In this document: in pieces, positions 5,836 through 41,241 of the stretch
Layout: each line of letters opens with the position of its first letter
Numbering within the stretch: the first letter of the stretch is position 1
Origin: Chloroflexota bacterium
GTDB lineage: Bacteria > Chloroflexota > Anaerolineae > Anaerolineales > Anaerolineaceae
DNA: 64,000 nucleotides
NCBI GenBank assembly: GCA_023434145.1
Contig: JAEYTI010000365.1
Coordinates: forward strand, 1,001 to 65,000
Direction of reading: 5' to 3'
Made by a program: the position numbers and the translations under genes
The notes under the pieces: generated by a model
What the model saw: the letters and a program-made list of their open reading frames with translations, nothing else
Databases searched by the model: none
Told to the model about the DNA's origin: nothing

Positions 5836-5844
5836 GAGCCAATT

Positions 5845-28666: not shown

Positions 28667-29797
28667 TTAACTTTTGCGAAGGCTGGTCCCTTTCAAGCTG
28701 GTTGAAACTTCCAGGACATGGTCCTTTTCTTCAGCGTCTCCTCCACTGCTTGGGGGGGCAGTTTTCTTCATGGTTAGAGTACCCCTTAACGTACTCCCAG
28801 TTGTAGGTGGAGGAGGATCACGGGGTGGGGGACCACTGTGATCAGATAGTGGAGGTTCCAATGGGCCGGTCTCTAAATGGATTACTTCTTTGCGGTTCTT
28901 TAGACTATCGAAGATCTTCACGATGTCCGGCCGGTGTTTGGGCTGCTGGCGAAGCATGAGGTTTACTAAGTTTTGCAGCCAGCGAGGCAGCGAATCAGAT
29001 GTAATCCGCAGCGTTTCACCATTGAGCACTGCTATATATGGATTTATATATTCAGGGTTGAAAACCGGCATCTTCCCTGTCAGATACTGGCAGAAGATAA
29101 TCCCCAGCGCGAAGATATCAGATTTACAAGTTAGATCTTTGGGCTGGATCTCTTCATCCTCGTTGTAATACAGACCAAGTTCAGGAGAATAGTAGTTCAT
29201 GTCCCCCACCAGTTCATCTCGGTTGAGGGTTGGGCAGCCGGAAAAATAGCTGTCATCAAAGTCAATCAGAGCCGCGACATAAAATTTCGGTGTCTGTTTT
29301 ATGATGACGTTATCTGGTTTTAGGTCACCATGCACCAGGTTAACCTTGTGCAAGATCGAGAGGCTGTGAGTCAGTGTTGTTAGGAGCATGAGCCGCTGAT
29401 CAAATGGCAAGTTGCATATCTGTTCCAGGTTTTGAGCGGCCACATTTACGCGGTGGGCCACCTTATAATATTTTGTGCCTTCGCGAAAAAAGTCTGTGGC
29501 TACTATGAGGTTCCCACCACCAGAATAATCGATCAGCAAATTTTGCACTTGCTTATTCTGGTTTTCAAAAGATAAACAATCCCTATGATTTTTCTCCAGC
29601 TCTAAGGGAGGAATCGTAACCACTTTCCCTCCACAAGTAGATGAAGACTCCAGGTACACAGGCTTAAGGAATCGTTTAATAAAATATTCAGTGCCATTTT
29701 TCCGTGCGAAGGCCCACTCGCAGCGACCGCCGCCCTTATTGGAAAAATTAGTGGTTAGCTCGTATCCGTGAATGACGCTGCCTTTGGAATATCCCAT
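28667..29797 (-). CDS. Ser/Thr protein kinase of a TerY-P triad
   Basis: 376 aa. Catalytic loop VHGDLKPDNVI (HGD rather than HRD), DFD in place of DFG (LIDFDDS), SPE motif. Pro-rich C-terminus. Confidence 0.8.
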   Translation of the reverse strand: MGYSKGSVIHGYELTTNFSNKGGGRCEWAFARKNGTEYFIKRFLKPVYLESSSTCGGKVVTIPPLELEKNHRDCLSFENQNKQVQNLLIDYSGGGNLIVATDFFREGTKYYKVAHRVNVAAQNLEQICNLPFDQRLMLLTTLTHSLSILHKVNLVHGDLKPDNVIIKQTPKFYVAALIDFDDSYFSGCPTLNRDELVGDMNYYSPELGLYYNEDEEIQPKDLTCKSDIFALGIIFCQYLTGKMPVFNPEYINPYIAVLNGETLRITSDSLPRWLQNLVNLMLRQQPKHRPDIVKIFDSLKNRKEVIHLETGPLEPPLSDHSGPPPRDPPPPTTGSTLRGTLTMKKTAPPSSGGDAEEKDHVLEVSTSLKGTSLRKS

Positions 29798-29799
29798 AC

Positions 29800-31185
29800 T
29801 TATTGCCTTCTAAATGTTTTCTCACCCTTGGGCGCACATTTTTCATAGCTTCGTTTATATTCTGCCCATAGAGAAAGCTGTAAATTATGGCTTCTCCGTT
29901 CGGCTGCTTCTAATTCTGCCCGGCTGCGAGTAGCTTTTTCTCTAGCTTCATCCAGAGGGTTTATATACTGCCCCTCCATGGTTTCAAGTCGCTCCTGAAA
30001 AGCTTCGCGGAGGGCGGTGAATTGGGACCAGCCCAAGCCGATGAGCGCCATAGAAGCATCATCGCCCGTGATTTCGGAAATCTTTTGTGACAAGTTTTCC
30101 CGCCATTGACCTTCATCGCTAGCTTCCAACAGTGATTTGAGCACCAGATACTCAAAGTGCATTGGTGTGGGAACGTAATGGAAGCAACCATCTGTAGCAG
30201 TTATCAGTAACAAGGGACCCGCAGTGATTCGGCTGGAGCGGTTTAATGAAACTGGCTGGTCGGCATTAACACAGTTTGAAAGGGGAAAATCAGCCGTAAG
30301 GTTCGCAAATGCATCTACAGACTCCATCAAGTCATCATTGGAAAGCTGCTGGAGCCCTGCATCGGGCGTTAGCATATAACAGCGCGAGTCGCCGGCCCAG
30401 GTGGAAAGAACGTAATAGTAATCACCTGTAGCTGTAGCATTTTCTTGACTGTTGTAAATAATCGCTGCCAGGGTAGTTGGCAGCCGGCGCACAAGGCTGC
30501 TTTTTAACTGCGACTTGGGTGCCTGGTACCTATTAACTGTCGCTTGAATGCTGTTGGTCAAATCATCTTTAAGGCGGTCGACAAAGGAGATTGCCTCTTC
30601 TTGGGAAAAAGAATTGCGCGCCCAGAAATTTTTCACTACCTCGCAAGCAAGCCGGGAGCCCAAGTAGGCACCTGTTCTGGGTTGACCTTCGGTGTCTAAA
30701 TAGGTGGCAGCGCCAGACCCCCCCATTCCGTCAAACACAGCCAAAAGGCCCGCACCGCCCCGTACTTCCAAGATCGGGTAGGCGTCTTCTCCATGTCCGG
30801 TAGTTTTCTCCGACCAAACCGTTAGGTAAATCGGGACCCGCATGGCTGGTTGCCTGTGCGATGGTGATGGCGGAAGTTCTCCGGGCACAAACCAGTCTGT
30901 TGGATTTTCTACCCGAGCAAGAGGAGTTTGTTCAACCATTATCTGGGAAGCGGGAACCTCAATTCCCGCAGAGTGTGGAACGCTCTGCGGGATAGGCTGC
31001 GGAACACGTTCCAGGCGCCGCGCACTTTTTTTGCGGCTGGTTTCTCCCGGTTTTTGCACACTACAGTAACCCATGGGGCTTTTTTTTGCCGATGGTTCAA
31101 GGGGTGGAGGAGTATCTGGAAGATCCTCTTCTACATTCGAGGTCCGGTAAAACCAGAATTTTTTAAGCTTCTCCCAGATTTTCAT
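29800..31185 (-). CDS. PP2C-family protein phosphatase of a TerY-P triad
   Basis: 461 aa. ..GHGEDAY.., LLAVFDGMGGSGAATY and TATDGCFHY blocks. Its stop lies 2 nt before the kinase start. Confidence 0.75.
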   Translation of the reverse strand: MKIWEKLKKFWFYRTSNVEEDLPDTPPPLEPSAKKSPMGYCSVQKPGETSRKKSARRLERVPQPIPQSVPHSAGIEVPASQIMVEQTPLARVENPTDWFVPGELPPSPSHRQPAMRVPIYLTVWSEKTTGHGEDAYPILEVRGGAGLLAVFDGMGGSGAATYLDTEGQPRTGAYLGSRLACEVVKNFWARNSFSQEEAISFVDRLKDDLTNSIQATVNRYQAPKSQLKSSLVRRLPTTLAAIIYNSQENATATGDYYYVLSTWAGDSRCYMLTPDAGLQQLSNDDLMESVDAFANLTADFPLSNCVNADQPVSLNRSSRITAGPLLLITATDGCFHYVPTPMHFEYLVLKSLLEASDEGQWRENLSQKISEITGDDASMALIGLGWSQFTALREAFQERLETMEGQYINPLDEAREKATRSRAELEAAERRSHNLQLSLWAEYKRSYEKCAPKGEKTFRRQ

Positions 31186-31231
31186 GTGCGTTTCACCAGC
31201 TTTTGGACATCAATCATAGTCTTGCAGTGGT

Positions 31232-31915
31232 TTAGATTGAGTTTTGGATAACGTCAAGGATTACTTCATAATCCGTATCGGAAAGGCCCATTCCTGCCTG
31301 TGCCGGGTGGTGAATAGTGTTGTCCCAGTGAGCGCTGATCCATGTCCAGGGTTCACAGTCGGGCGCGAAAAGAATTAGCCGCTTATATGAAGAGTGTACC
31401 AATGGGCTCTGGCCCTGCCACTGGCTGAACAGCTCCCCTATTGAACTCGGGAGGCCTGAAGGATAATTTCCTTTCTTCCCCGTATATTCCAAGGGATGAG
31501 CGGAGGTATCTGTGAACATCACTACCACTTGCCGGCGTTTCGTACCCTCTTTTGCCCAATCGGACTGCAGTGCGTACGAAAGCGCTTCCAATGCACATTC
31601 CGGTTCGTCACCCCCTCCTTCAGCGGTTAATGGACTGACAAATACTTTTAGCTGTTCTTCTTCGCCAGGTAGATCAAAAAAAGGCGATATTTTCATCGGT
31701 TCAACATCTTCGGCGTGGTAATCCCGAAATGCAATTACCTTGACACGAAGATTGGAGATTTTCTTACCCTTCTCCGTGCAGGAACGGATCACATCATTAT
31801 GAAAATTGAGTGCGTTTTTCTTCACTCGATCTATATGTGCGCCCATGCTGCCGGTCACATCTATGCACATGACGATATCTACAGTGTATGTAATGCCCTG
31901 GAACTGTTGTGCCAT
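31232..31915 (-). CDS. TerY-like von Willebrand factor A (vWA) protein of a TerY-P triad
   Basis: Start moved to MAQQFQG (AGGAGA 7 nt upstream; 227 aa). MIDAS-like motif VMCIDVTGSMG. Confidence 0.75.
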   Translation of the reverse strand: MAQQFQGITYTVDIVMCIDVTGSMGAHIDRVKKNALNFHNDVIRSCTEKGKKISNLRVKVIAFRDYHAEDVEPMKISPFFDLPGEEEQLKVFVSPLTAEGGGDEPECALEALSYALQSDWAKEGTKRRQVVVMFTDTSAHPLEYTGKKGNYPSGLPSSIGELFSQWQGQSPLVHSSYKRLILFAPDCEPWTWISAHWDNTIHHPAQAGMGLSDTDYEVILDVIQNSI

Positions 31916-32205
31916 TTTCGTTTCTCCTGAGATGGAATCCGAATAAGTTTCGACGGTCCTTTTTGGACAAGTGAGTGCTGAAGAGAAAACCATGACTGTT
32001 TGGAACGTTACTGGGGTAGGCTCAATAAAACTGTGTCTTTCCGACGGAGAAGACCCTTTTCCCCCTAAACTAATATGTAACAAATGAGATGAAATTCAAG
32101 AATAAGAATACAACTAAATACGATAAGTGACAAGTATTCTTTTGGTCATGTTTTTTGTTTGTAAGGTCTTTTACGAATTTTTAATGCAATAATATTATTC
32201 GTAAC

Positions 32206-32365: not shown

Positions 32366-33325
32366 ATGTATATTCGCAGGTTTTTTCTGTTAGCTGTTCT
32401 TGTTTTTTGCCTATCCATTACAGGATGCATTGCCGTTCAATCATTTGATACCGTCATTGAATTGAAACCGGGAGAAGATTGGACGGTGACAATGACGATT
32501 GCCTTTGATCAAACTAGTCTGCAAATGTACGGCGCTGATGTCACTCAGAGCATGAATGAAATGGTCAGCCAGATTGAGCAGGAGCAGGAAGGTGTAGAGG
32601 CATCGTGGGAGCAAGGCAAGATTACCGATGATGGAACGATCCCATATATTATCAGGATAGATGGGAGGGGTATTACCGACCTGGACAATCTTCTCTTCTC
32701 AGGAGAGGGCGGCATTATCCAGCATCAGGTAGATGGCAAGAACCGTATCGATATTTCGATCCCTGCTGGTGTATTTAATGTGGAAGCAAACCAGGTGACG
32801 GTAACACTGAAAGGTGGAAAGATCCTCTCCACTAATGGTGAAAAAGTCAATAACACCACAGTGAAATGGGTGAACCCCGGTGGAAGTCTCAACGTGACAA
32901 TGGAGGAACCCAAGTCCAGCTTACACTGGCTCGTATTTTTACTGATCGCGGCTGTGGTTGGAATAGGGCTCACGGTGGTGGCTGGAGGAGGCATGATGTT
33001 GTTCCTTCGCAGAGGAAAGGCAAAATCCTCTGCGTCGCCGTCTTATCCAGGATACGTACCGTACTCGGCGCCTGCTGGCTCGGCTCCTGAGGCTACTGCT
33101 GCAGCTGCTCCCATTTCTGCTGCCCCTGTGAAAAATCCCACCAGCAGCGGCTTGCGAACGACGATTCCTTCGGCTCATCGAACTGCCCCTTCTGGTACAC
33201 TCCGGTCCGCAGCCCCATTGGCGACGACAAGCGCCCCGGCGACGGAGCAAAAATACTGCCCAAGCTGCGGTACGGCATGGAAGCCTGGTGCGCGGTTCTG
33301 CACCAACTGCGGTTATAAAGGATAA
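32366..33325 (+). CDS. Lipoprotein/TM protein with a C-terminal cytoplasmic zinc ribbon
   Basis: Start moved to MYIRRFFLLAVLVFCLSITGC (AGGAGG RBS; lipobox ITGC). One TM (WLVFLLIAAVVGIGLTVVAGG), a Pro/Ala/Ser-rich tail, then CPSCG..CTNCG. Confidence 0.65.
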   Translation: MYIRRFFLLAVLVFCLSITGCIAVQSFDTVIELKPGEDWTVTMTIAFDQTSLQMYGADVTQSMNEMVSQIEQEQEGVEASWEQGKITDDGTIPYIIRIDGRGITDLDNLLFSGEGGIIQHQVDGKNRIDISIPAGVFNVEANQVTVTLKGGKILSTNGEKVNNTTVKWVNPGGSLNVTMEEPKSSLHWLVFLLIAAVVGIGLTVVAGGGMMLFLRRGKAKSSASPSYPGYVPYSAPAGSAPEATAAAAPISAAPVKNPTSSGLRTTIPSAHRTAPSGTLRSAAPLATTSAPATEQKYCPSCGTAWKPGARFCTNCGYKG

Positions 33326-33385
33326 AAAATCCCATAATGAGGCACATTTAATCAGGATCGAACCCCAACATTCAGGAGAAGCATT

Positions 33386-34525
33386 ATGATCTGCTCAAAG
33401 TGTGGTGTAGAAAATACCGGCGATTCGCGATTTTGTATGAGCTGTGGTTCACCACTCGCGGCTGCGCCAGCAGGGTCAACAGGCCACTCCACTGGAGCCA
33501 CCCCGGCATCCAGCGGTTCTTCAGGGTTACGTGGGACGATGGGAGGAGCTCGGCCCGTTGCTAGCGGCGGACCATCTGCCAGTATGCCTCCCTATACCAC
33601 CACCAGTACCCCGCCGTTTTCTACTGGCGGGGCAGGGAGTGCGCCAACCCCGCCGCCCCCTAGCATGTCGGTGCCCCGGACGCCAGCGCCCGCAGCCGGC
33701 GGAGTATCGATACGAAGCCACTCAGCGCCGACCCCTGCCCCTGCGGCCGCTTCCGCCCCTCACTCAGGGATATACGTACCTGGTTCCTCGTTTTCCACCG
33801 AATCTGGCGTGCAGACGTTTAATATTTGGGGTCCCTTCGCTGGATTTGGCACCCGCCGGCGCCACCAGGGCTGGTTGATGGATAACAGAGGCGAATACAC
33901 CCAGACACTCATAGAAAAGGTCAACACTAAGTTTGCTGAACGCTCTGTGCCCGATGCACAGATCCGCTACGAATACCTGACTGCAAAAGGGCTGGTAGTG
34001 GAACGACGGCCATATTTTATCCTCAGTCGCAACTTAGTAAGTATGGGCCTATATATCAGCCATTTTGGCAAAGATCTGTTCGTATCCATCGCTTCCTATT
34101 TAAAGCCGCCCATTAGCAACCTGCGCGTGGTGCTGCTGGGGGTGATGCTGCTCTTCGCCCTGTATACCAATATGATCCTCCCCTCGGTGGTCAGCAGTCA
34201 GCTCAACGGGCTGGCCGGAGGAATGTTTGGCGGTCCCGCCCCAGATTTGAACGGCGTGATGACCCTGCTGTGCATCTTTGGCCCACTGGGAGTGCTGAAT
34301 AACCTGGCGCTGGTCATTCTGTTCTGGTACAGCGTCTACAAATTGCTGACGGAGAAAGACTTCTTGGCGGCCCTCCGTACCCAGCCAAACGAATTCAATG
34401 AGGATGACTTGATGGCGATGGAAAAGGCGGTTGAGCAGACCGTGCGCATTTCCATCGACGAGATTGGCTTAGACCCCTCCGACCTGAAGCCGATTGGCTC
34501 GGGAATGGAACGGCGCTTGATTTAA
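33386..34525 (+). CDS. N-terminal zinc ribbon, disordered Pro/Ala/Ser linker and C-terminal membrane domain
   Basis: 379 aa. MICSKCGVENTGDSRFCMSCG, a ~110-aa low-complexity linker, and two to three TM helices near the C-terminus. Confidence 0.65.
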   Translation: MICSKCGVENTGDSRFCMSCGSPLAAAPAGSTGHSTGATPASSGSSGLRGTMGGARPVASGGPSASMPPYTTTSTPPFSTGGAGSAPTPPPPSMSVPRTPAPAAGGVSIRSHSAPTPAPAAASAPHSGIYVPGSSFSTESGVQTFNIWGPFAGFGTRRRHQGWLMDNRGEYTQTLIEKVNTKFAERSVPDAQIRYEYLTAKGLVVERRPYFILSRNLVSMGLYISHFGKDLFVSIASYLKPPISNLRVVLLGVMLLFALYTNMILPSVVSSQLNGLAGGMFGGPAPDLNGVMTLLCIFGPLGVLNNLALVILFWYSVYKLLTEKDFLAALRTQPNEFNEDDLMAMEKAVEQTVRISIDEIGLDPSDLKPIGSGMERRLI

Positions 34526-34538
34526 ATGAAATTCCAAT

Positions 34539-34570
34539 CGAGGCTGGACATACCGCTCTGTCCAGCCTCG
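34539..34570. other. Perfect 12-bp stem-loop (CGAGGCTGGACA, 8-nt loop, TGTCCAGCCTCG) upstream of the ATPase gene; possible terminator or processing site without a U-tract
   Basis: Read directly from the sequence. Confidence 0.4.
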
Positions 34571-34595
34571 AACTGAAACAGGGAAAAAATCAACT

Positions 34596-37358
34596 ATGTC
34601 GCCACTTACTGGTTCTATGTCAGGAAGCGGGAGTGAGGCCGCACCGTGGGTTGAAAAGAAAGCCGTTCCTGCCCCGGTGATCCGCTTCTTAATCGTCTCG
34701 GACCATCCGCAGGAAACCTTGTTTGCATTTCGCATCCCTGCGCTGCCTGATTTTCTAGCAGACCACATGCTGTTGGGCAGCACCCCCGCCGAGAAGCTGG
34801 ATGAGGTGCTGGAGCGCTTCCAGCGACTGGCCATTGCTCTGCGCAAGTACCGCGGTTCAGCTTTTGCGCTCCGCTTCTGGTCACAGCCGGCCCTGGGAAA
34901 GATCGACCTGTTCCTGGTCTGCAGGTTACGCGCCATTCCCGACGGGCCGATTGTTACCCCTTCTCACGCTGCTGCAGATATCAGCGCGCTTCTGGTTAGC
35001 TATGGTATCCCCTACGAGCCGGTAACGACTGGCGATGCACTCTCTTTGGAAACCATCCTCCAGCCATTTGGACACAAAACGGCCATGGTTGAGGCGCGCC
35101 AGCACGAGCAGGTGGTGAATTTGATGACGGTGAACTGGGACGCTTACGTCATCCACCCCTATTGGAAACCCCAAGGGCTGTTTCTTGAGCCATTTGAGAC
35201 GATGCTGCGCTTGACACACCCCTGTGTGATCAGTGTATACCTGGAACCGACTGAGTTGAGTGAAGATGAGTTTTACAGCCTAGGCGAGGCCGGCTATCTG
35301 GCTCAAACGGTCGCTGATTACCAGGTACCAACTCTTGCCACTACGAGTGTTTCTCGGCGGCGGGACCCGGGGGCGGAGTTGATCGGGCGGATCTATACTC
35401 AGTATCTAAACGCTCTTTCTGAGCCATTTATTATGGTTATTCAGGCCGCCAGCCCAGACGCAAACACCGCCTGGACGGCGCTGCGAGCGTATACCAATTG
35501 CATGATCAAGCAGCGACCATCGGTGCGAGACGCCGGTCCCGACAGCAATTTGCCTTCAGCGGCCGACATTGAAGCTCCCAGCAACAATGATGAGTATAAC
35601 CGTGCAATTCAAATTTTTTCGCGACTCAACTGGTTTCCTTGGGGACGTAGCAGCGCTAGCCAGTTCAAGGAGCGCATTCGCTATCTTGTGGGGGCAGGTG
35701 GGGCCAGCGCAGCATTCCGCTTCCCGGTGAGCAACCGGGGTGGTGTGCCGGGGGTTGCGGTTCACCAGCCTGTGCCCGATTTTGAGCCGGGTCCACGCCC
35801 ATCACATCCCGGGGTAGACGAGATCCACCTTGGTAATTTCCGCAGGGGCGGCTGCGCGGTAGCCGTCCGGCGCGACCTCACTCGGCACGTCTTGGTAACA
35901 GGGTTTACCGGCAGCGGAAAAACCAACACTGTGCTCTACTTGCTGGACCAGTTATGGCGCAAGCTGCATACGCCCTTCCTTGTCGTGGAAGCAGCAAAGA
36001 AAGAGTACCGGGCGTTGGCCCGCGTTCCTGGGTTCGAAGATTTACTCGTCTTTACACTCGGTGACGAAACGACTTCGCCCTTCCGACTCAACCCGTTTGA
36101 ACTGCTGCCAGGAGTGCGTTTGGAGGCGCATCTCAGCCGGTTGCAGGCTTGCTTCGATGCAGCCATGCCGCAGTTTGGCATCCTGCCGTCCATTATCCAG
36201 CAGGCGATGATTGAGATCTACGCTGAAAAAGGCTGGAACTTGAAAGATTACGCGGTGGAGAATGAGAAGCGAATGTTCCCCACCATGCGCGACCTGTTCC
36301 GTATGGCTATACAAGTGGTAAACAATCGCGGGTACGAAGGTGAAATCCGCAGTAACATCTTGGCCGCGGTTTCGGGCCGCATTGGCAGCCTATTGATGGG
36401 CAGCAAAGGCGCTATGTACGGTTGCCAGCATTCTTTCCCTGCTGATGTGCTGCTGAGGCGACCAGTGATCTTGGAATTAGATGATCTGAACGGCGATGAG
36501 AAAGCGCTTTCGATGATGTTCCTGCTCACCTGGTTACGCGAGTACCGCACCTTACATCCCAGTGATCAGCTTCAGCACGTGACCGTGGTGGAGGAGGCTC
36601 ATAACGTTCTGAGCAATGTGCACTCAGTGGGTAATACAGAAATTGCCGCTGACACAAAGGTCAAAGCGGTGGATGCGTTTAGCAATATGCTAAGCGAAGT
36701 ACGTTCGATGGGTGAGGGGCTAGTTATCTCAGATCAATCGCCGGAAAAGCTGGCCCCCGATGCCATGCGCAACACCAATTTACAAATTGCTCACCAATTG
36801 CGCGACCAGCGCGACCGTGAAGCCATCGCGCGGGCGATGATAATGGACGAAAAGCAGCGGGACTATATCGGCAAGCTTCAGGTTGGTGAGGCAGCGGTAT
36901 TTATGACCGGGTTGGAACAAGCAACGTTTATACGGGTTCCCGAGTTCAAAGATACCGCCGGATTTGGCTCTTTACCATCGGCCGAATTCATCCGTAGCCG
37001 CATGGACGCCTTTGGCGAGAAACATCTCAAAGCCAGCCTGCCCTACGATGGTTGCCAGTTCTGTAAACAGGTATGTCATTTTCGGGAAGGGATCGAGCCC
37101 CAAACATTGGTAGTCGAGCTGACGGATACCTTCCAGAAATCACTGAAACTGTTTGACCGCAATCCCCAACCCGAACATTGGTCTGAGAACTGGAGGAAGG
37201 TGGCCGAGGTGTGTTTGACCGCCGCAGAACGCGCCGGTTATCAGAGGCAGCTAAACGCCGGGTACTGCTACCTGGTTCACGAAATCGATTTTAAGTTTAA
37301 CGAGCATATGCGCCGGTCGTTTGAATGCGCGGTTCGGGAAATTGTCAAGGGAGGTTGA
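34596..37358 (+). CDS. FtsK/HerA-superfamily P-loop ATPase with a ~430-aa unassigned N-terminal region (920 aa)
   Basis: Walker A HVLVTGFTGSGKTNT, Walker B VTVVEEAHNV, distal NLQIAHQLRDQRDREAI block. No TM segment is evident. Confidence 0.75.
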   Translation: MSPLTGSMSGSGSEAAPWVEKKAVPAPVIRFLIVSDHPQETLFAFRIPALPDFLADHMLLGSTPAEKLDEVLERFQRLAIALRKYRGSAFALRFWSQPALGKIDLFLVCRLRAIPDGPIVTPSHAAADISALLVSYGIPYEPVTTGDALSLETILQPFGHKTAMVEARQHEQVVNLMTVNWDAYVIHPYWKPQGLFLEPFETMLRLTHPCVISVYLEPTELSEDEFYSLGEAGYLAQTVADYQVPTLATTSVSRRRDPGAELIGRIYTQYLNALSEPFIMVIQAASPDANTAWTALRAYTNCMIKQRPSVRDAGPDSNLPSAADIEAPSNNDEYNRAIQIFSRLNWFPWGRSSASQFKERIRYLVGAGGASAAFRFPVSNRGGVPGVAVHQPVPDFEPGPRPSHPGVDEIHLGNFRRGGCAVAVRRDLTRHVLVTGFTGSGKTNTVLYLLDQLWRKLHTPFLVVEAAKKEYRALARVPGFEDLLVFTLGDETTSPFRLNPFELLPGVRLEAHLSRLQACFDAAMPQFGILPSIIQQAMIEIYAEKGWNLKDYAVENEKRMFPTMRDLFRMAIQVVNNRGYEGEIRSNILAAVSGRIGSLLMGSKGAMYGCQHSFPADVLLRRPVILELDDLNGDEKALSMMFLLTWLREYRTLHPSDQLQHVTVVEEAHNVLSNVHSVGNTEIAADTKVKAVDAFSNMLSEVRSMGEGLVISDQSPEKLAPDAMRNTNLQIAHQLRDQRDREAIARAMIMDEKQRDYIGKLQVGEAAVFMTGLEQATFIRVPEFKDTAGFGSLPSAEFIRSRMDAFGEKHLKASLPYDGCQFCKQVCHFREGIEPQTLVVELTDTFQKSLKLFDRNPQPEHWSENWRKVAEVCLTAAERAGYQRQLNAGYCYLVHEIDFKFNEHMRRSFECAVREIVKGG

Positions 37359-37359
37359 T

Positions 37360-37536
37360 ATGTCGGCGGAGAGCATTGCGATAAAAGCAGTGACCGAGAC
37401 GGTCAAAGCCACTGAGAATGTGGTGAAGAAGATCTGGACCTTGCTGGATGCAGCCAGCGAGAAGGAACAGCCATCAAAATTTCTCAGCCAGCAGGCCGTT
37501 GAAGCCATTCAGGGCAGAACGAATCCCAAGGCATAG
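37360..37536 (+). CDS. Small helical protein (58 aa)
   Basis: Start moved to MSAESIAIK (AAGGGAGG RBS; the ATG follows the ATPase stop by 1 nt). Confidence 0.5.
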   Translation: MSAESIAIKAVTETVKATENVVKKIWTLLDAASEKEQPSKFLSQQAVEAIQGRTNPKA

Positions 37537-37597
37537 CGAAAGCCTGGCATTTCAAGCAATGCGAAGACCACCATAGAAAGGGGAAGGACAGGCAGAC

Positions 37598-38950
37598 ATG
37601 ACAGAATTTGGTGAACGGTATGACAGGAGTCCAGATGTCTCTTCCGAAAGTGGAATGGAGAAATTATCTCCGTCAGGGATTTCCGCAATGCGGGGTGAGG
37701 TAGGTCCGGCAATTCAGGTCGATACCTCTCAAGTTCAGGTTCCAGAAACCCCCTCAACCCCTGCTTCGGCTACGGATTCGGTGGATGAAGCACCCATCGG
37801 GGGACTGGAGCAGCCGCAGCCGACTGTCGAGGCCTCTATGGAAACGCCATCCTACGTGGAGATGTCCGACTCCCCTAGAAGTGCCCTGCGCGGTGACCTA
37901 CCGGGGAGAATGAACGGCGAAGACTCGCAAATGCCTAGCTATGGACAGGTGGATCAACCAATCGTTAGCACAGATGGACCTGATCGGTCTAGAAGTGCCC
38001 TGCGCGGTGACCTACCGGGGAGAATGAACGGCGAATCCACGGAGTTGCTAGGATCGCCAGAGAGTCCGGCCTGGGGAGCATCGCCTGAGGTTGCAGTTGA
38101 GCCACCTCCCACAGCGGAGATGCCTGATCGGCGGGGCAGTCCGCTTCGCGATGACCTTTCCGTCAGCACGCCTGAGACACCCAGGGGGCTTTACTCTGGG
38201 CAGCTGGAACCAGTACCGGCAGACAATATGCCCCCGTCACTTGAAAGGCCAGAAATAACTGATTCCCCCGAGCGGAAGGCGGAAATACCGATCCCCTACA
38301 TCACATCGGATGTACAGGATCGACCCCGCGTACCCGCAACACTACCCGATGGCAGCCCAACGAATATCACGGGAGACCTAAACGGATTTAAAGACTTGAA
38401 CCACGTGCAAGGGGAAGTAGATGGGTTCGACGGCACCTGTGGGATTTGTGCGACTCAGTGCGTGGCTAATGAGCACGGTCTGCCAGTTACTGAAGCGGAC
38501 GTGCTGAAGCAGGCTGTGGAACACGAGCCGCCACTTTGCAATATCGAGAACTACGATCCGGCTTTTCGAGGAGGCACTACGCCTGAGGACCGCGCCCAAC
38601 TGCTCACGGAAATGGACATCCCAAGCCACGTTGAGTTGGGTAAGAATTTCCAGGATCTGTCAGACTATATCGATAACGGGAAGTCGGTGATATTATCAAC
38701 CAACGCCGGGTTTCTCTGGCAAGATCCCAACTACGTGGGCGCAGACCCGACAAAACCCAACCACGCGGTTACGCTGATCGACGTTGCTCATGACCCGCAG
38801 ACAGATGAGATCCAGGGATTTTTTATCAATGACTCGGGTGAACCTGATAAAGATGTGGGATCAGGGAAGTTTGTTGACATGAACACCATGCGCAATGCTT
38901 GGTTAAACACCGGCGGAAAAGTAGTCGTTTCAGACATAACGCATCGTTAG
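37598..38950 (+). CDS. Protein with a ~260-aa disordered repeat-bearing N-terminal region and a C-terminal papain-like (C39-like) cysteine peptidase-fold domain
   Basis: 450 aa, no signal peptide. Candidate catalytic set is Q..GTCGICATQC (Cys), NHAVTLIDV (His) and FINDSG (Asp/Asn). Confidence 0.6.
   Translation: MTEFGERYDRSPDVSSESGMEKLSPSGISAMRGEVGPAIQVDTSQVQVPETPSTPASATDSVDEAPIGGLEQPQPTVEASMETPSYVEMSDSPRSALRGDLPGRMNGEDSQMPSYGQVDQPIVSTDGPDRSRSALRGDLPGRMNGESTELLGSPESPAWGASPEVAVEPPPTAEMPDRRGSPLRDDLSVSTPETPRGLYSGQLEPVPADNMPPSLERPEITDSPERKAEIPIPYITSDVQDRPRVPATLPDGSPTNITGDLNGFKDLNHVQGEVDGFDGTCGICATQCVANEHGLPVTEADVLKQAVEHEPPLCNIENYDPAFRGGTTPEDRAQLLTEMDIPSHVELGKNFQDLSDYIDNGKSVILSTNAGFLWQDPNYVGADPTKPNHAVTLIDVAHDPQTDEIQGFFINDSGEPDKDVGSGKFVDMNTMRNAWLNTGGKVVVSDITHR
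37875..38035 (+). repeat. Two perfect 47-nt direct repeats (37875-37921 and 37989-38035) inside the CDS
   Basis: CTAGAAGTGCCCTGCGCGGTGACCTACCGGGGAGAATGAACGGCGAA occurs twice, 114 nt apart, and encodes ..RSALRGDLPGRMNGE.. (it contains RGD). Confidence 0.9.
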
Positions 38951-38973
38951 TTAGAGGAGGGAGGATACCGCGT

Positions 38974-39492
38974 ATGAGCGCCCAGAGCTTTATCTCCTAT
39001 CAAGATCTCCGTACGCAAAAAACACTCGCTCAGCTCTTGCTGAGCGAGATCCCGGAAACGAACGCTGTCTCATTCGCGATACCGTCCAAACGTCTTGGCG
39101 AGCCAGCATTTGTTCAGTTTTCCGCACCTGCTTATCGCGTTCCACGAAAACCAGTCCTTCAAGGAGCGCCTGACCGCTGGTGGGGTGTCCATGCCGTAAC
39201 AGGAAAACTGCTTTTTTATGCATTATGGAAGGTGCAGCCGTTCCACATAGGCCGTCCATATGATAATCAGGAATTACCCCGGGTAGAGTTTAGTATTGAT
39301 CAGTATCATGAGAAGCTGTTACTGCTTGAGAGCCAGGTAAATTCGCTTGTCCCTGCTTTTTTCCTAAACCAATCTATTCCTTTGGAACAAAAGTCCGCTC
39401 TATGGGAGACTTACCGACTACTTATTCCTGGGCAACTTATAGATCAGTATCAAATGTTAGCTCCCGATTTTTTTGCCTGGTTGATTACTTGA
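38974..39492 (+). CDS. Hypothetical protein (172 aa); its position fits a cognate partner or immunity protein of the upstream peptidase-like protein
   Basis: Start moved to MSAQSF (GAGGAGGGAGG RBS), 23 nt after the upstream stop. Confidence 0.5.
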   Translation: MSAQSFISYQDLRTQKTLAQLLLSEIPETNAVSFAIPSKRLGEPAFVQFSAPAYRVPRKPVLQGAPDRWWGVHAVTGKLLFYALWKVQPFHIGRPYDNQELPRVEFSIDQYHEKLLLLESQVNSLVPAFFLNQSIPLEQKSALWETYRLLIPGQLIDQYQMLAPDFFAWLIT

Positions 39493-40010: not shown

Positions 40011-41241
40011 AGGGTAAACGCATCTAAATCAGGGAAGAGTTGAAAGGAGAGGCAAAAGCCGTTATCCTCAAGAAGAAGTAGGAGGAACGGCATGGAAAAC
40101 CAGGGTAGTGGACAGTTCAACGAGCATTTTGGCGACTTACCCGACCCGCGCATCGAGCGGACGAAGCGGCATAAGCTGATTGACATTGTGGTCATTGCGA
40201 TCTGTGCGGTGATCTGTGGGGCGGATGATTGGGTGGAAGTGGAATTGTTTGGCGAGTCGAAGGAAAGCTGGTTTCGCACCTTTTTAGAATTACCCCATGG
40301 GATCCCGTCGCATGATACCTTCACGCGCGTCTTTGCCCGGCTGGATCCGGACGCCTTTCGGCTGCGGTTTGTCGAATGGGTGCAGGTGGTCAGCCAGATC
40401 ACCGGGGGACAGGTGATCGCCATCGATGGCAAGAAGATGCGCGGGTCTGCGGAACCGATCTTGGGGCACGGAGCGATTGACATGGTGAGTGCCTGGGCGA
40501 CGGAGAACCATCTGGTATTGGGACAGGTGAAAGTAGCGGACAAATCCAATGAAATCACCGCTATTCCCCAACTGCTGCAAGTCTTGGAACTAGCTGGATG
40601 TCTGGTAACCATCGATGCCATTGGCTGCCAGAAGGAGATAGCCCAGACGATTGTGGACCAGAAGGCCGACTACCTGTTGGAGGTGAAAGAAAACCAGGGA
40701 ATCTGTACGAGGATATCGCGGAAGCCTTTGCGGGAGCGAAGGAAGTGGCCTTTCGGGCGGTGCCGCACAGCTACCACAAAACTGTGGATGGCAATCATGG
40801 CCGGATCGAAACGCGGGAATGCTGGGCAATTTCCGACCCCGAATATTTGCACTACTTGCGCGGCTATGCCGACTGGCCGAAACTGCACACCATCCTGATG
40901 ATCTGCAACCAACGCAAGCTGAACGGAAAAGTGGAACAAACCACCCACTACTACATCGCCAGCCCCACCTGGAGCGCCAACCGGTTTCTGACCAGCAAAC
41001 GCAGCCATTGGGGCATCGAAAACGGTTTGCATTGGGTGCTGGATATTGCCTTGCAAGAAGATCATCACCGCTTACGCAAAGATCATGGCCCGGAGAACTT
41101 CGCCGTCCTGCGCCATATCGCCGTCAATTTGCTCAAACAGGAAAAATCGGTCAAAGCCGGGATCAGAGCCAAACGACTCAAGGCTGGTTGGGACAATGAC
41201 TACCTCCTCAAGGTCCTCTCCCAATAAGATGCGTTTACCCT
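40011..41241 (+). mobile_element. ISAs1-family insertion sequence
   Basis: Perfect 15-bp terminal inverted repeats AGGGTAAACGCATCT (40011-40025 and the reverse complement of 41227-41241). Flanked by the direct repeat GGGCTCATGTT (40000-40010 and 41243-41253). Confidence 0.85.
40092..41227 (+). pseudogene. ISAs1-family (H-repeat-associated) transposase, frameshifted
   Basis: The N-terminal part ..DLPDPRIERTKRHKLIDIVVIAICAVICGADDW.. runs to ..LLEVKENQG. It continues in the -1 frame as NLYEDIAEAF..HWGIENGLHWVLD... One nt is missing around 40697-40700. Confidence 0.8.

What the first reader, a model, noticed from the sequence alone, without database searches (positions are those of the whole stretch)
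34596..39492. Candidate uncharacterised module: FtsK/HerA-like ATPase, 58-aa helical protein, disordered protein with a papain-like domain, and a small partner ORF
Four co-directional, tightly spaced genes make up this module.
- Gene 1 is a 920-aa soluble P-loop ATPase of the FtsK/HerA type (GFTGSGKTNT, VVEEAHNV). Its ~430-aa N-terminal region matches nothing I recognise.
- Gene 2 is a 58-aa helical protein that starts 1 nt after the ATPase stop.
- Gene 3 is a 450-aa protein without a signal peptide. Its first ~260 aa are Pro/Ser/Glu-rich and repeat-bearing. Its last ~190 aa carry a Q..C / H / D(N) arrangement (GTCGICATQC, NHAVTL, INDSG) typical of C39/papain-fold peptidases or toxins.
- Gene 4 is a 172-aa ORF with a strong RBS, in the position of an immunity or partner gene.

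The layout recalls substrate/toxin-immunity cassettes of FtsK-ATPase-driven (type VII-like) export in monoderms. It equally recalls NTPase-plus-protease conflict systems. It matches no described system that I know. It also lies in a defence island next to TerY-P.
Basis: partly seen in the sequence, partly recalled or inferred. Interest (0 to 1): 0.7.

Follow-up and report, generated by a model that had tools for sequence, protein, structure and literature searches.

The report
ATPase-linked motif-tagged toxin cassette system
The four genes are real and form the tail of a six-gene unit: a membrane-anchored VirB4/HerA-like ATPase that in many bacteria sits beside swappable toxin-like proteins sharing one short address-tag motif, which looks like an undescribed toxin-delivery (or defence) machine.

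Summary
In detail: genes of 920, 58, 450 and 172 aa lie at the stated coordinates.

The unit is larger than the finding says. Two zinc-ribbon membrane proteins upstream belong to it, giving 32366-39492.

- **Conserved core.** A hairpin membrane protein (Zn2) plus a single-P-loop FtsK/HerA-superfamily ATPase whose model best matches full-length VirB4. The ATPase is 54-63% identical across more than 100 Anaerolineae clusters and 36-45% identical in at least seven other phyla.
- **Shared motif.** The 58-aa protein is conserved in 19 related loci. It ends in the motif LSxxA(I/V)xAIQG. The same motif sits about 25-40 residues from the N-terminus of many unrelated proteins encoded next to the ATPase. 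These include the C39-like protein here, a second C39 family, ParB-like proteins, metallopeptidases and a GH-E nuclease toxin followed by Imm-SuFu.
- **Distant homologues.** Acidobacterial homologues are followed by a WHH nuclease and a SUKH immunity protein.
- **Genes 3 and 4.** Gene 3 has a confident papain/C39 fold with invariant Cys, His and Asp. Gene 4 always accompanies it.

Best reading (about 0.5): a new ATPase-driven export route for polymorphic toxins that follows type VII-like logic without being type VII. Main rival: an intracellular HerA-type defence scaffold. No description was found in the literature searches made.

The parts
32366..33325 (+). Zn1: lipoprotein-like membrane protein. 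N-terminal hydrophobic signal with an ITGC lipobox, a weak LppM-like outer domain, a second transmembrane segment, an Ala/Ser/Pro-rich linker and a C-terminal zinc ribbon.
   Evidence: Pfam Zn_ribbon_3 at 9e-7 and a weak LppM hit. Transmembrane segments at aa 1-31 and 182-215. Homologues lie upstream of the ATPase in 11-13 Chloroflexota loci. The public gene call is 319 aa.
33386..34525 (+). Zn2: N-terminal zinc ribbon, a Pro/Ser/Gly-rich linker, then a conserved 240-aa region made of a soluble domain, a two-helix membrane hairpin and a cytoplasmic tail. It is the most constant partner of the ATPase.
   Evidence: Pfam Zn_Ribbon_1 at 2.8e-7. Transmembrane segments at about aa 241-271 and 291-315. 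It lies immediately upstream of the ATPase in 19 of 21 informative Chloroflexota loci. hhalign gives 76% probability (E 2.4e-5 over 142 columns) to the upstream two-transmembrane partner 'c9' of the ATPase in Nitrospira, Planctomycetota and Verrucomicrobiota.
34596..37358 (+). Soluble 920-aa ATPase of the FtsK/HerA superfamily. It has an alpha/beta N-terminal region of about 400 aa, one P-loop domain and a helical C-terminal domain with a Cys cluster.
   Evidence: Pfam DUF87 at 2.3e-7, PADLOC mad8 at 9e-15 and HerA at about 1e-11, NCBIfam CedD at 2e-20; all the NCBIfam equivalog scores are far below cut-off. More than 120 clusters share 54-63% identity over the full length. Foldseek's best hits are full-length VirB4/TrwK at E 1e-12 over about 900 columns with TM 0.3, and the VirB4 C-terminal domain at TMt 0.63.
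35901..35924 (+). Walker A motif (GFTGSGKT, aa 436-443).
   Evidence: Invariant in alignment A1.
36585..36605 (+). Walker B region (VVEEAHN, aa 664-670).
   Evidence: E666, E667, A668, H669 and N670 are invariant in A1.
37053..37076 (+). CxxCxxxC cluster (C820, C823, C827) in the C-terminal helical domain. This is a probable metal site.
   Evidence: The three Cys residues plus C891 are invariant, and C873 is nearly invariant, in A1. Metal binding is inferred.
37360..37536 (+). Gene 2: a 58-aa helical protein of a conserved family (KKaWSilDAASEKKpPSeYLSxxAIxxIQG followed by a variable tail).
   Evidence: jackhmmer found 23 members, all in ATPase loci. tblastn hits in 19 loci. No Pfam, NCBIfam or PADLOC family.
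37483..37515 (+). Motif copy at the C-terminus of gene 2 (LSQQAVEAIQG).
   Evidence: Regex scan. The family is conserved up to the Gly and variable after it.
37598..38950 (+). Gene 3: a motif-bearing disordered N-terminal region (aa 1-238) plus a C39-like papain-fold cysteine peptidase domain (aa about 240-450).
   Evidence: AlphaFold pLDDT is below 50 for aa 1-238 and about 90 for the C-terminal domain. Foldseek hits: 3erv C39-like (E 5.7e-6, TMt 0.62), double-glycine peptidase 6mpz (TMt 0.72), CdiA-CT toxin 8ssm (TMt 0.69) and staphopain. Pfam Peptidase_C39_2 at 1.7e-4 scores 22.6 bits against a cut-off of 24.
37664..37696 (+). N-terminal motif copy in gene 3 (LSPSGISAMRG, aa 23-33). Three further degenerate copies (S-A/P-L-R-G/D-D/E) start at aa 95, 133 and 181.
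   Evidence: The model predicts a short helix at aa 25-31.
37875..38048 (+). Two 60-nt direct repeats (90% identical, 114-nt spacing). They duplicate the RSALRGDLPGRMNGE motif unit inside the disordered region.
   Evidence: the repeat finder family D1.
38438..38833 (+). Catalytic residues of the peptidase domain: Cys281 (38438-38440), His389 (38762-38764), and Asn411/Asp412 (38828-38833). The candidate oxyanion Gln271 lies upstream of this span.
   Evidence: Invariant in alignments A2 and A3 of the family.
38974..39492 (+). Gene 4: a 172-aa cytoplasmic partner of gene 3 with invariant PDRWW and PDFFxWL motifs. Its fold is unknown.
   Evidence: It lies directly downstream of the gene-3 homologue in L009, L010, L064, L066, L067 and about 20 metagenome loci. 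The family has 313 representative clusters, nearly all standalone proteins of about 165-190 aa. No library family matches.
28667..32083 (-). Context only: a VWA (TerY-like), PP2C phosphatase and Ser/Thr kinase triad, divergent from the operon. It is a possible regulator.
   Evidence: Pfam. The same triad, with the VWA protein 41% identical, lies directly downstream of the ATPase homologue in Thermoguttaceae locus L043. It was found in no other of about 60 loci.

Best explanation
The four genes are the downstream part of a six-gene unit, Zn1-Zn2-ATPase-gene2-gene3-gene4.

**Shown**
- The core is a soluble VirB4/HerA-like ATPase paired with a hairpin membrane protein (Zn2).
- A short motif, (L)S..(G/A)(I/V).(S/A)(I/M)(Q/R)G, is shared by the C-terminus of the 58-aa protein and by the N-terminal 25-40 residues of a changing set of unrelated enzymes encoded next to the ATPase.
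- That set includes genuine polymorphic-toxin domains followed by genuine immunity proteins.
- Gene 3 is one such client: motif copies, a disordered linker and a C39-like cysteine peptidase. Gene 4 is its fixed partner.

**Inferred mechanism**
- The ATPase is held at the membrane by Zn2 and Zn1.
- It recognises the motif and drives motif-tagged, signal-peptide-less effectors across the membrane for use against neighbouring cells.
- The 58-aa protein is a co-substrate or adaptor that carries the same signal, comparable in role to WXG100/EsxB in type VII secretion.
- Gene 4 neutralises or chaperones the peptidase in the producer, as an immunity protein or a staphostatin-like inhibitor would.

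The system works like a type VII or type IV effector-export system but is not a member of either.
For: 1. **Core conservation.** Zn2 lies immediately upstream of the ATPase in 19 of 21 informative Chloroflexota loci. A distant homologue with the same hairpin layout lies upstream in other phyla.
2. **ATPase model.** It best matches full-length VirB4 and then HerA and TrwB, all of them translocation motors.
3. **Motif enrichment.** The strict regex gives 31 hits against 1.6 in shuffles. The loose motif occurs in 22 of 70 ORFs within 3 kb downstream of the ATPase and in 14 of 268 ORFs elsewhere in the loci (odds ratio 8.3, p = 2e-8). The position is constant at aa 25-41.
4. **Motif carriers have unrelated C-terminal domains.** These are the gene-3 C39 family, Peptidase_C39_2 (2.8e-13), DUF6782 metallopeptidase (5e-8), a weak ParB_N hit, and a GH-E nuclease (3e-25) followed by SUFU/Imm-SuFu (1.4e-27).
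5. **Distant homologues.** In two acidobacterial species the ATPase is followed by a WHH nuclease (5e-17) and SUKH-1 (1e-21). In Microcystis it is followed by DUF4258.
6. **Precedent.** Tox-PL-C39, Tox-ParB, Tox-GHE, Tox-WHH, Imm-SUKH and Imm-SuFu are catalogued polymorphic toxin and immunity domains (PMC3482391).
7. **Structural neighbours of gene 3.** They include a CDI toxin solved with its immunity protein, and staphopain, which has a co-encoded inhibitor.
8. **Patchy cassettes.** Cassette content differs between ATPases of similar divergence. L068 and L020 are 76% identical yet carry different cassettes.
9. **Not viral.** No relative of the ATPase was found in viral contigs.
Against: - No secretion has been observed and no polytopic channel protein was identified. 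Only hairpin or bitopic partners are present.
- The family also occurs in diderm phyla without any recognisable outer-membrane component.
- Gene 4 matches no known immunity family.
- In a second, larger set of operons (sigma-like, C39, gene-4 homologue, unknown protein, two dynamin-like GTPases, unknown protein, DUF87 ATPase) the C39 + gene-4 pair is a fixed, motif-less core component rather than swappable cargo.
- The closest sequence profiles for the ATPase domain are defence-system HerA and mad8 models.
- One motif carrier (L020 c28) has a hydrophobic segment after the motif, which may mean ordinary membrane insertion.
- The VirB4 match has low TM-scores of about 0.3.
Confidence: 0.5

Rival explanations
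1. Intracellular conflict or anti-phage system. The ATPase ring acts as a sensor or activating scaffold, as HerA does in Sir2-HerA or HerA-DUF4297 systems. It would dock motif-tagged effectors (peptidases, nucleases) at the membrane and release them on infection. Gene 4 and the SUKH/SuFu proteins would keep the effectors silent until then.
For: - The best sequence-profile hits of the ATPase domain are PADLOC mad8 (9e-15) and HerA models.
- PDB profile hits are HerA proteins only.
- The gene-3 + gene-4 pair is a fixed component of operons with LeoA/LeoBC-like dynamin GTPases and a DUF87 ATPase, one of which carries a TIR fusion.
- TIR, CHAT and FGE-sulfatase genes neighbour some loci.
- A VWA-PP2C-kinase triad is adjacent here and in L043.
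Against: - The family looks vertically stable. It is 54-63% identical across a whole class, with syntenic membrane partners, unlike typical patchy defence islands.
- Dedicated SUKH and SuFu immunity genes next to WHH and GH-E toxins are the hallmark of toxins delivered between cells (PMC3482391).
- No NurA, Sir2 or DUF4297 partner is present.
- The conserved membrane hairpin partner has no role in known HerA defences.
Confidence: 0.25
2. Proteolytic processing or signalling module. The motif is a cleavage site rather than, or as well as, a docking site. By the author's recollection of the consensus LSxxELxxIxGG, it resembles a double-glycine leader. The C39-like peptidase would cut after the conserved Gly in gene 2, in its own repeat-bearing linker and in other motif proteins. 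Gene 4 would be its substrate or regulator, for example an anti-sigma-like factor in the operons that begin with a sigma-70-like gene.
For: - The structural neighbours of gene 3 include double-glycine leader peptidases solved with the leader bound (6mpz TMt 0.72, PCAT1 TMt 0.73).
- In the gene-2 family, conservation stops exactly at the Gly and is followed by variable short tails.
- Gene 3 carries four motif copies.
- C39-type domains are the commonest cassette type, present in 8 of about 24 Chloroflexota-type loci.
- A sigma70_r2 protein precedes C39 + gene 4 in the dynamin-type operons (Pfam 3.4e-11).
Against: - Most loci with gene 2 and motif proteins have no C39-like gene within reach.
- The residue after the Gly is not Gly/Ala/Ser as in true leaders.
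- The C39 proteins of the sigma/dynamin operons lack the motif.
- The resemblance to the leader consensus rests on recalled knowledge and was not tested.
Confidence: 0.12
3. Remnant or variant of a type IV (conjugation or DNA-uptake) apparatus. A VirB4-like ATPase with a VirB3-like hairpin partner would move DNA, and the neighbouring genes would be incidental.
For: - Foldseek's top hits are full-length VirB4/TrwK, and the VirB4 C-terminal domain scores TMt 0.63.
- There is a weak NCBIfam match to the archaeal DNA-import ATPase CedD.
- The partner encoded upstream is a hairpin membrane protein.
Against: - The Pfam VirB4 family (CagE_TrbE_VirB) is not hit.
- No Pfam or NCBIfam hit to VirB6, VirB8, VirD4, a relaxase or a pilin appeared among the neighbours that were scanned within +/-10 kb of the homologous loci.
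- CedD scores 73 bits against a cut-off of 600.
Confidence: 0.04
4. Chance adjacency. Genes 3 and 4 are an independent toxin-antitoxin-like pair that merely landed beside an unrelated ATPase operon, near an insertion sequence.
For: - An IS element with 28-nt inverted ends lies about 520 nt downstream, at 40011-41241.
- The pair is present in only a minority of Anaerolineae ATPase loci.
Against: - The same order, ATPase - gene 2 - C39 - gene 4, recurs in five other loci whose ATPases are only 50-63% identical.
- Gene 3 carries the gene-2 motif. The motif variant co-varies within a locus: it is QD in both genes in L010 and in L070.
- The pair associates with DUF87 ATPases in at least three further architectures.
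Confidence: 0.04

Closest known systems
Type VII secretion (EssC/EccC with WXG100 proteins and LXG toxins)
   Same: - An FtsK/HerA-superfamily ATPase is encoded with a small helical protein that carries a terminal recognition signal.
- Signal-peptide-less toxins with swappable C-terminal domains and adjacent immunity genes lie next to it.
- The system is stable in a lineage while its cargo varies.
   Different: - The ATPase has one P-loop domain rather than three.
- It has no transmembrane segment and no FHA domain, and the membrane anchor is supplied in trans by Zn2.
- There is no WXG100 protein, no LXG domain and no EsaA/EssA/EssB.
- The signal is a short linear motif of about 11 residues, not a helical bundle with YxxxD/E.
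VirB4 ATPase of type IV secretion systems (TrwK of R388; PDB 8rtd, 7o42, 4ag5)
   Same: - It is the best structural match over both halves of the protein.
- It shares the two-domain layout of about 900 aa.
- Its partner is a small hairpin membrane protein encoded just upstream, as VirB3 is.
   Different: - Sequence identity is only about 12%, and the Pfam VirB4 model is not matched.
- The extra Cys-cluster C-terminal domain is absent from VirB4.
- No other type IV component was recognised nearby.
Defence-system HerA ATPases (Sir2-HerA, HerA-DUF4297, MADS mad8)
   Same: - These are the best sequence-profile matches for the P-loop domain.
- They are ATPase rings that work with enzymatic effectors.
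   Different: - There is no Sir2, DUF4297 or NurA partner.
- The N-terminal region is a large domain of about 400 aa rather than a HAS barrel alone.
- A conserved membrane partner is present.
- Effectors come with immunity-type genes.
Polymorphic toxin systems (Zhang et al. 2012, PMC3482391), including Tox-PL-C39
   Same: - A common N-terminal element is followed by a variable C-terminal toxin domain (C39-like, ParB-like, GH-E, WHH).
- A small cognate gene (SUKH, SuFu, gene 4) lies downstream.
   Different: - The N-terminal element is a short motif in a disordered region, not one of the catalogued trafficking domains.
- The linked motor and membrane protein are not those of any listed export route.
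- Gene 4 is not a catalogued immunity family.
C39 / double-glycine leader peptidases (PCAT1, LahT; Pfam Peptidase_C39 and C39_2; B. anthracis 3erv)
   Same: - They share the papain-like fold with Gln, Cys, His and Asp in the same order.
- They are the closest solved structures.
- By recalled knowledge, the system's motif resembles a double-glycine leader.
   Different: - Gene 3 is not fused to an ABC transporter.
- It carries a 240-aa disordered N-terminal region.
- It has a dedicated 172-aa partner.
- Its own Pfam score is just under the cut-off.
Staphopain-staphostatin
   Same: A papain-fold protease has its specific cytoplasmic partner encoded immediately downstream in the same operon. Staphopain is among the structural neighbours of gene 3.
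   Different: Staphopain has a Sec signal and a propeptide. Gene 4 has no detected similarity to staphostatins, and inhibition by gene 4 is untested.

Membership tests
Type VII secretion system | Membrane-embedded EssC/EccC ATPase with tandem FtsK/SpoIIIE P-loop domains (plus FHA in the b type) | tested here: not met
   One Walker A and one Walker B. No transmembrane segment. Neither Pfam FtsK_SpoIIIE nor FHA is hit.
Type VII secretion system | WXG100 (EsxA/B) small substrates, or LXG-domain toxins | tested here: not met
   Gene 2 and gene 3 give no WXG100 or LXG hit in Pfam or NCBIfam. Gene 2 has no WxG.
Type IV secretion system | VirB4-family ATPase | tested here: inconclusive
   Foldseek's top hits are full-length VirB4 (E 1e-12, but TM about 0.3). 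The Pfam VirB4 model is not matched, and only weak TrwB and TraC P-loop hits appear.
Type IV secretion system | Other core parts: VirB6 and VirB8-like proteins, coupling protein, relaxase or pilin | tested here: not met
   None was recognised among the annotated or Pfam-scanned neighbours in the window or the homologous loci.
HerA-NurA repair or HerA-effector defence (Sir2-HerA, HerA-DUF4297) | HerA equivalog-level similarity | tested here: not met
   NCBIfam HerA models score 23-37 bits against cut-offs of 800-970.
HerA-NurA repair or HerA-effector defence (Sir2-HerA, HerA-DUF4297) | Adjacent NurA, Sir2 or DUF4297 partner | tested here: not met
   PADLOC and Pfam give no such hit for any neighbour.
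Polymorphic toxin system | Shared N-terminal element joined to variable C-terminal toxin domains | tested here: met
   The motif lies at aa 25-41 of at least nine unrelated protein families beside the ATPase. One of them is a GH-E toxin.
Polymorphic toxin system | Cognate immunity gene directly downstream of the toxin | tested here: inconclusive
   Met in related loci: SuFu after GH-E, SUKH after WHH, and a weak SUKH hit in L004. For the window, gene 4 is a constant downstream partner, but it belongs to no known immunity family and neutralisation is untested.
Polymorphic toxin system | Export of the toxin and action on neighbouring cells | not testable with these tools
   This needs secretome and competition experiments.
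Peptidase C39 / C39-like (papain fold) | Papain-like fold | tested here: met
   The model has pLDDT of about 90. Matches are 3erv (E 5.7e-6, TMt 0.62), 6mpz (TMt 0.72) and PCAT1 (TMt 0.73).
Peptidase C39 / C39-like (papain fold) | Catalytic Cys and His (plus Asp/Asn, and oxyanion Gln) conserved | tested here: met
   Q271, C281, H389, N411 and D412 are invariant in A3; the same Cys, His, Asn and Asp are invariant and the Gln nearly invariant in A2.
Peptidase C39 / C39-like (papain fold) | Pfam gathering score for Peptidase_C39_2 | tested here: inconclusive
   The window protein scores 22.6 bits against a cut-off of 24. Five of nine homologue clusters carry a precomputed PF13529 hit.
TerY-P triad-linked system | VWA + PP2C + Ser/Thr kinase genes functionally linked to the module | tested here: inconclusive
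   The triad is adjacent here and directly downstream of the ATPase in L043, but it is absent from the other roughly 60 loci.

The most novel reading that the evidence does not exclude
This is a previously unrecognised protein-export pathway, distinct from the numbered secretion systems. A VirB4/HerA-like ATPase, anchored by a hairpin membrane partner, recognises an 11-residue, double-glycine-leader-like motif and exports polymorphic toxins. The pathway would be inherited throughout the class Anaerolineae and present in at least seven other phyla. The 58-aa protein would act as a signal-bearing co-substrate.
Probability: 0.4. Interest if true: 0.9.

Novelty: new variant of a known kind. Interest (0 to 1): 0.78.

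Why it matters
- **A possible answer for Chloroflexota.** These bacteria are abundant in sludge, sediments and soils, yet how they deliver toxins or effectors is essentially unknown. Many catalogued polymorphic toxins also have no assigned export route.
- **A concrete, testable unit.** The analysis links one conserved ATPase, one membrane partner, one small protein and a simple sequence tag to a changing set of toxins and peptidases.
- **Value if export is confirmed.** It would add a new motor and signal type to bacterial secretion. It would also supply a sequence tag for finding cargo genome-wide.
- **Value if it is a defence system instead.** It would be a new membrane-anchored HerA-type architecture that recruits effectors through a short linear motif.
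- **Gene 4.** Either way, the family (313 representative clusters) acquires a first functional context.

Tried and rejected
- **Housekeeping HerA or FtsK.** Rejected. NCBIfam scores are far below cut-off and no NurA is present.
- **Type VII membership.** Rejected. The ATPase has a single P-loop and no transmembrane or FHA element, and there is no WXG100.
- **Type IV or conjugation.** Only the ATPase fold matches. No other parts were found.
- **Phage origin.** No relative of the ATPase was found in viral contigs.
- **Composite transposon.** The two DDE transposase genes (24954-26108 and 40092-41227) share no repeats. Only the second has its own 28-nt inverted ends.
- **Profile search of the gene-3 family against PDB sequences.** The top hits were designed WD40 repeats, produced by summing weak repeat matches, and were discarded. 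The only relevant hit was 3erv at E 0.34. The fold was therefore tested by modelling instead.
- **Simple HMM of the Zn2 C-terminal region.** It found no partner outside Chloroflexota. Only profile-profile comparison linked it to the c9 family, at moderate probability.
- **DO-GTPase systems of Kaur et al. 2020 (PMC7159879).** I read these as a possible home for the dynamin-type operons. The components described there (DO-GTPase, GAP1, GASH/FNIII) do not correspond.
- **General link to the TerY-P triad.** It was found in only one other locus.
- **Literature searches.** Four searches for HerA/DUF87/VirB4-like ATPases together with polymorphic toxins or TerY-P found no description of this system.

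Full report
**1. Observation**

The four ORFs are present exactly as described. The ATPase is at 34596-37358 (920 aa) and carries TGFTGSGKTNT and VVEEAHNV. A 58-aa ORF at 37360-37536 starts one nucleotide after the ATPase stop. A 450-aa ORF lies at 37598-38950 and a 172-aa ORF at 38974-39492, the last preceded by GGAGGGAGG.

Products of exactly these lengths are called genes in public assemblies of the same organism.

The first 240 residues of gene 3 are 14% Pro, 13% Ser and 10% Glu. They contain a 60-nt direct repeat with 114-nt spacing. None of genes 1-4 has a hydrophobic segment.

Two further co-directional genes lie directly upstream, and the gaps along the row are 60, 70, 1, 61 and 23 nt:
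- Zn1 (32366-33325) has a lipoprotein-like signal, a weak LppM-like domain, a second transmembrane segment and a C-terminal zinc ribbon.
- Zn2 (33386-34525) has an N-terminal zinc ribbon, a low-complexity linker, a conserved domain, a two-helix hairpin and a tail.

On the + strand, no terminator-like site lies inside 32366-39492. One lies about 120 nt after gene 4.

**2. The ATPase**

Pfam gives DUF87 (2.3e-7). PADLOC gives mad8 (9e-15) and several HerA models (about 1e-11). NCBIfam gives CedD (2e-20, 73 bits against a cut-off of 600) and HerA equivalogs at 23-37 bits against cut-offs of 800-970. It therefore belongs to the FtsK/HerA superfamily but to none of the named families.

A profile of the family hits only HerA proteins in the PDB sequence set, and only weakly (5e-5).

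The AlphaFold model (pLDDT 74.7) best matches full-length VirB4/TrwK of the R388 type IV system. The match has E 1e-12 over about 900 aligned columns, but TM-scores are only about 0.3. Next come HerA, the VirB4 C-terminal domain (TMt 0.63) and TrwB.

The family is large and well conserved. The 120 best-matching clusters are 54-63% identical over the full length, and those that carry a source name are labelled Anaerolineae. Full-length relatives at 36-45% identity occur in Cyanobacteria, Planctomycetota, Verrucomicrobiota, Nitrospira, Acidobacteriota, Armatimonadota and Melainabacteria (Obscuribacter), plus single contigs binned as Acetobacteraceae and Betaproteobacteria.

Walker A, Walker B and a C-terminal CxxCxxxC cluster are invariant. 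No relative was found in viral contigs.

**3. What travels with the ATPase**

I fetched 60 genomic loci and clustered their ORFs.
- A Zn2 homologue lies immediately upstream of the ATPase in 19 of 21 informative Chloroflexota loci.
- Zn1 homologues lie further upstream in 11-13 loci.
- The 58-aa protein is found in 19 loci, either directly after the ATPase or a few kb downstream.
- Genes 3 and 4 appear in only two of these loci (L009, L010), in both cases right after gene 2.

Outside Chloroflexota the gene upstream is often a 270-540-aa protein with two transmembrane segments ('c9'). Profile-profile comparison links its N-terminal domain and first transmembrane segment to the conserved region of Zn2, at 76% probability and E 2.4e-5 over 142 columns.

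The constant core is therefore a hairpin membrane protein plus the ATPase, not the four genes of the finding.

**4. Genes 3 and 4**

The C-terminal domain of gene 3 scores 22.6 bits on Pfam Peptidase_C39_2, whose cut-off is 24. The first search found nine homologous clusters, five of which carry that Pfam hit.

In the family alignments Cys281, His389, Asn411 and Asp412 are invariant, and Gln271 is invariant in A3 and nearly so in A2.

The model places residues 1-238 as disordered (pLDDT below 50) and the C-terminal domain at a pLDDT of about 90. Foldseek returns:
- the C39-like peptidase 3erv (E 5.7e-6, TMt 0.62);
- Ufm1 proteases;
- a papain-fold CdiA-CT toxin solved with its immunity protein (TMt 0.69);
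- the double-glycine leader peptidases 6mpz and PCAT1 (TMt 0.72-0.73);
- staphopain and cathepsins.

Gene 4 has no family in Pfam, NCBIfam or PADLOC. A sensitive search finds 313 representative clusters, nearly all standalone proteins of about 165-190 aa, with invariant PDRWW and PDFFxWL.

I then fetched 57 metagenomic loci and three looked-up contigs. In these, a gene-4 homologue follows the gene-3 homologue whenever the contig continues and the C39 protein is at least about 38% identical.

The pair recurs beside DUF87-type ATPases in several layouts:
- ATPase - gene 2 - C39 - gene 4 (window, L009, L010, L070, L103, L068).
- ATPase - C39 - gene 4 (L082); L124 has ATPase - C39 followed by an unclustered 159-aa ORF.
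- A longer operon made of a sigma70_r2-like gene, C39, gene 4, an unknown protein, two dynamin-like GTPases (weak LeoA/LeoBC hits), another unknown protein and a DUF87 ATPase. This form occurs in an Acrocarpospora genome and about ten metagenome contigs.

**5. The shared motif**

Aligning the gene-2 family shows conservation of KKaWSilDAASEKKpPSeYLSxxAIxxIQG, after which the sequences end in short, unrelated tails.

The N-terminal regions of the ATPase-linked C39 proteins carry the same element about 23 residues from the start:
- window: LSPSGISAMRGE;
- L009: VSPRGISAIQGG;
- L010: MSNEGLSAMQDE;
- L070: two copies.

The window protein has three further degenerate copies.

In L010 and L070 both gene 2 and gene 3 have QD instead of QG. 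Their ATPases are each other's nearest relatives in the sample, so this may reflect a single evolutionary event.

A strict regular expression finds 31 instances in 460,000 residues of locus ORFs, against 1.6 in shuffled sequences. A looser form is present in 22 of 70 ORFs within 3 kb downstream of the ATPase and in 14 of 268 other ORFs (odds ratio 8.3, p = 2e-8). Its position is strikingly constant, at residues 25-41.

The carriers are unrelated in their C-terminal parts:
- the gene-3 family;
- a second C39 family (Peptidase_C39_2, 2.8e-13);
- a DUF6782 metallopeptidase (5e-8);
- a SprT-like protein (weak);
- ParB_N-like proteins (weak);
- several small proteins with no family;
- in L128, a GH-E nuclease toxin (3e-25) carrying ITPNKGIVAIQGE at residues 24-36, followed by a SUFU/Imm-SuFu protein (1.4e-27).

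In L004 a motif protein is followed by a weak SUKH-1 match (1.4e-4).

In the 64-kb window, gene 2 and gene 3 are the only real ORFs that carry the motif.

**6. Distant homologues point the same way**

In two acidobacterial species the ATPase is followed by a 118-aa acidic protein, a 112-aa WHH/colicin-DNase nuclease (5e-17) and a SUKH-1 immunity protein (1e-21). In Microcystis an acidic-tailed DUF4258 protein follows (1.3e-10).

GH-E, WHH, ParB and C39-like peptidases, together with SUKH and SuFu, are all listed as toxin and immunity domains of polymorphic toxin systems (PMC3482391).

**7. Mechanism**

Shown:
- the gene order;
- the conserved ATPase-hairpin pair;
- the motif, its enrichment and its position;
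- the variable enzymatic cargo, including genuine toxin-immunity pairs;
- the papain fold of gene 3;
- the fixed pairing of gene 3 with gene 4.

Inferred, best reading (0.5): the ATPase is tethered to the membrane by Zn2 and Zn1, binds the motif, and drives signal-peptide-less clients out of the cell. Gene 2 would be a signal-bearing co-substrate or adaptor. Gene 4 would protect the producer from, or chaperone, the peptidase.

This follows the logic of type VII secretion and of type IV effector export, but membership of either fails on defining features. The ATPase has a single P-loop and no transmembrane or FHA element. There are no WXG100 or LXG proteins. No type IV parts other than a VirB4-like fold were found.

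Main rival (0.25): an intracellular HerA-type defence scaffold that docks effectors through the motif. It is supported by the defence-type profile hits and by the dynamin/TIR-containing operons that hold the C39 + gene-4 pair as a fixed, motif-less core. It is weakened by the class-wide, syntenic conservation and by the immunity-type genes.

Second rival, possibly an added layer (0.12): the motif is a cleavage site for the C39-like peptidases. From my own knowledge of the consensus LSxxELxxIxGG, the motif lines up with a double-glycine leader, with hydrophobic residues at -4, -7 and -12 and Gly at -2. The closest structures include leader peptidases. However, most loci have no C39 gene nearby.

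**8. Context and the 'defence island' remark**

A VWA-PP2C-kinase triad lies divergently upstream. The same triad, with the VWA protein 41% identical, lies directly downstream of the ATPase homologue in a Thermoguttaceae contig (L043), but nowhere else among about 60 loci. This is suggestive of a regulatory link, since kinase and PP2C control of type VI secretion is a known precedent (own knowledge). It remains weak.

BREX-type genes (a PglX-like methylase and BrxL) lie at 251-7926. An IS element with 28-nt inverted ends lies at 40011-41241.

**9. Novelty**

Four literature searches and a reading of the two most relevant comparative-genomics papers found no description of this ATPase family, of its membrane partner, of the gene-2 or gene-4 families, or of the motif.

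I rate it a new variant of a known kind: polymorphic-toxin or effector systems coupled to an FtsK/HerA-superfamily ATPase. If export is demonstrated, it would count as a new secretion pathway.

Noticed in passing
window 251-7926: BREX-type defence genes are present: an Eco57I/MmeI-type methylase (PglX-like, 1080 aa), an unassigned 781-aa ORF and a BrxL Lon-like protein fused to a PLD-like MIT_C domain (Pfam 3e-100). They are followed by two DUF4268 proteins in a low-GC stretch (38-40% GC at 8-12 kb).
   Followed up: partly
window 28667-32083 (- strand); L043 10365-13655: The VWA-PP2C-kinase triad is divergent from the operon here. In a Thermoguttaceae contig it lies directly downstream of the ATPase homologue, with the VWA protein 41% identical. 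This may be a phospho-regulatory link. It was not seen in other loci.
   Followed up: partly
L066 5564-16852; L067; L069; L071; L080; L084; L087; L104; L109: A recurrent eight-gene operon was found: a sigma70_r2-like gene, a C39-like peptidase, a gene-4 homologue, an unknown protein of 520-700 aa, a dynamin-like GTPase, a zinc-ribbon dynamin-like GTPase, another unknown protein and a DUF87 ATPase of 830-1300 aa. In L067 the operon is extended by a TIR-dynamin fusion. It appears uncharacterised, and PADLOC gives only weak LeoA/LeoBC and mad8/HerA hits.
   Followed up: partly
L023 14607-15569; L024 10565-12138; L025 3441-4304; L026 13309-14328; L028 2705-3547: In cyanobacterial loci the ATPase is followed by a conserved protein carrying one to three C-terminal copies of a different motif (F..W[LV]..NP....F[ST]..EQ..AYQ.YL). 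A neighbouring unrelated protein (L024 11542-12138) carries one copy. This may be a lineage-specific counterpart of the Chloroflexota motif.
   Followed up: partly
L018 3974-5013; L051 and L053 (upstream of a distant DUF87 ATPase): A SprT-like/DUF6782 metallopeptidase and a small partner (clusters c35 and c36) occur after the ATPase in an Anaerolinea thermophila MAG, with the motif. The same pair also occurs next to a distant DUF87 ATPase in Bacteroidota gut MAGs, without the motif. This is a second effector-partner pair shared between different ATPase contexts.
   Followed up: no
L001, L011, L016, L035, L127, L128 (about 3-9 kb downstream of the ATPase): A giant zinc-ribbon beta-helix protein (790-1400 aa) and an FHA-domain ABC transporter recur downstream of the ATPase in one Anaerolineae sub-lineage. 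They are absent from this window. Many genes in these clusters begin or end with a single zinc ribbon.
   Followed up: no
window 40011-41241: An IS4-like element with 28-nt imperfect terminal inverted repeats. Its DDE transposase is split into two overlapping ORFs (40092-40898 and 40598-41227) and is probably frameshifted. It lies about 520 nt downstream of gene 4.
   Followed up: partly
window 41839-42870 (-) and 43317-43901 (-): A staphylococcal-nuclease-fold protein fused to a lamin-tail domain, and an HD_5 phosphohydrolase, lie just beyond the IS element.
   Followed up: no
window 12436-15801 (-): An 1122-aa protein combines a DUF6094 methyltransferase domain with a helicase C-terminal domain. 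It may be another restriction or defence gene next to the BREX block.
   Followed up: no
window 28482-28644 (within the 27626-28645 - strand ORF): Two 61-nt direct repeats (84% identical, 102-nt spacing) lie inside a RanBP-type zinc-finger protein gene that follows the kinase gene. They suggest tandem zinc-finger units.
   Followed up: no
L129 13686-19902: In one Anaerolineae locus, four TIR-domain genes and several FGE-sulfatase genes surround the ATPase-gene 2 unit. This is a conflict-system-like neighbourhood.
   Followed up: no
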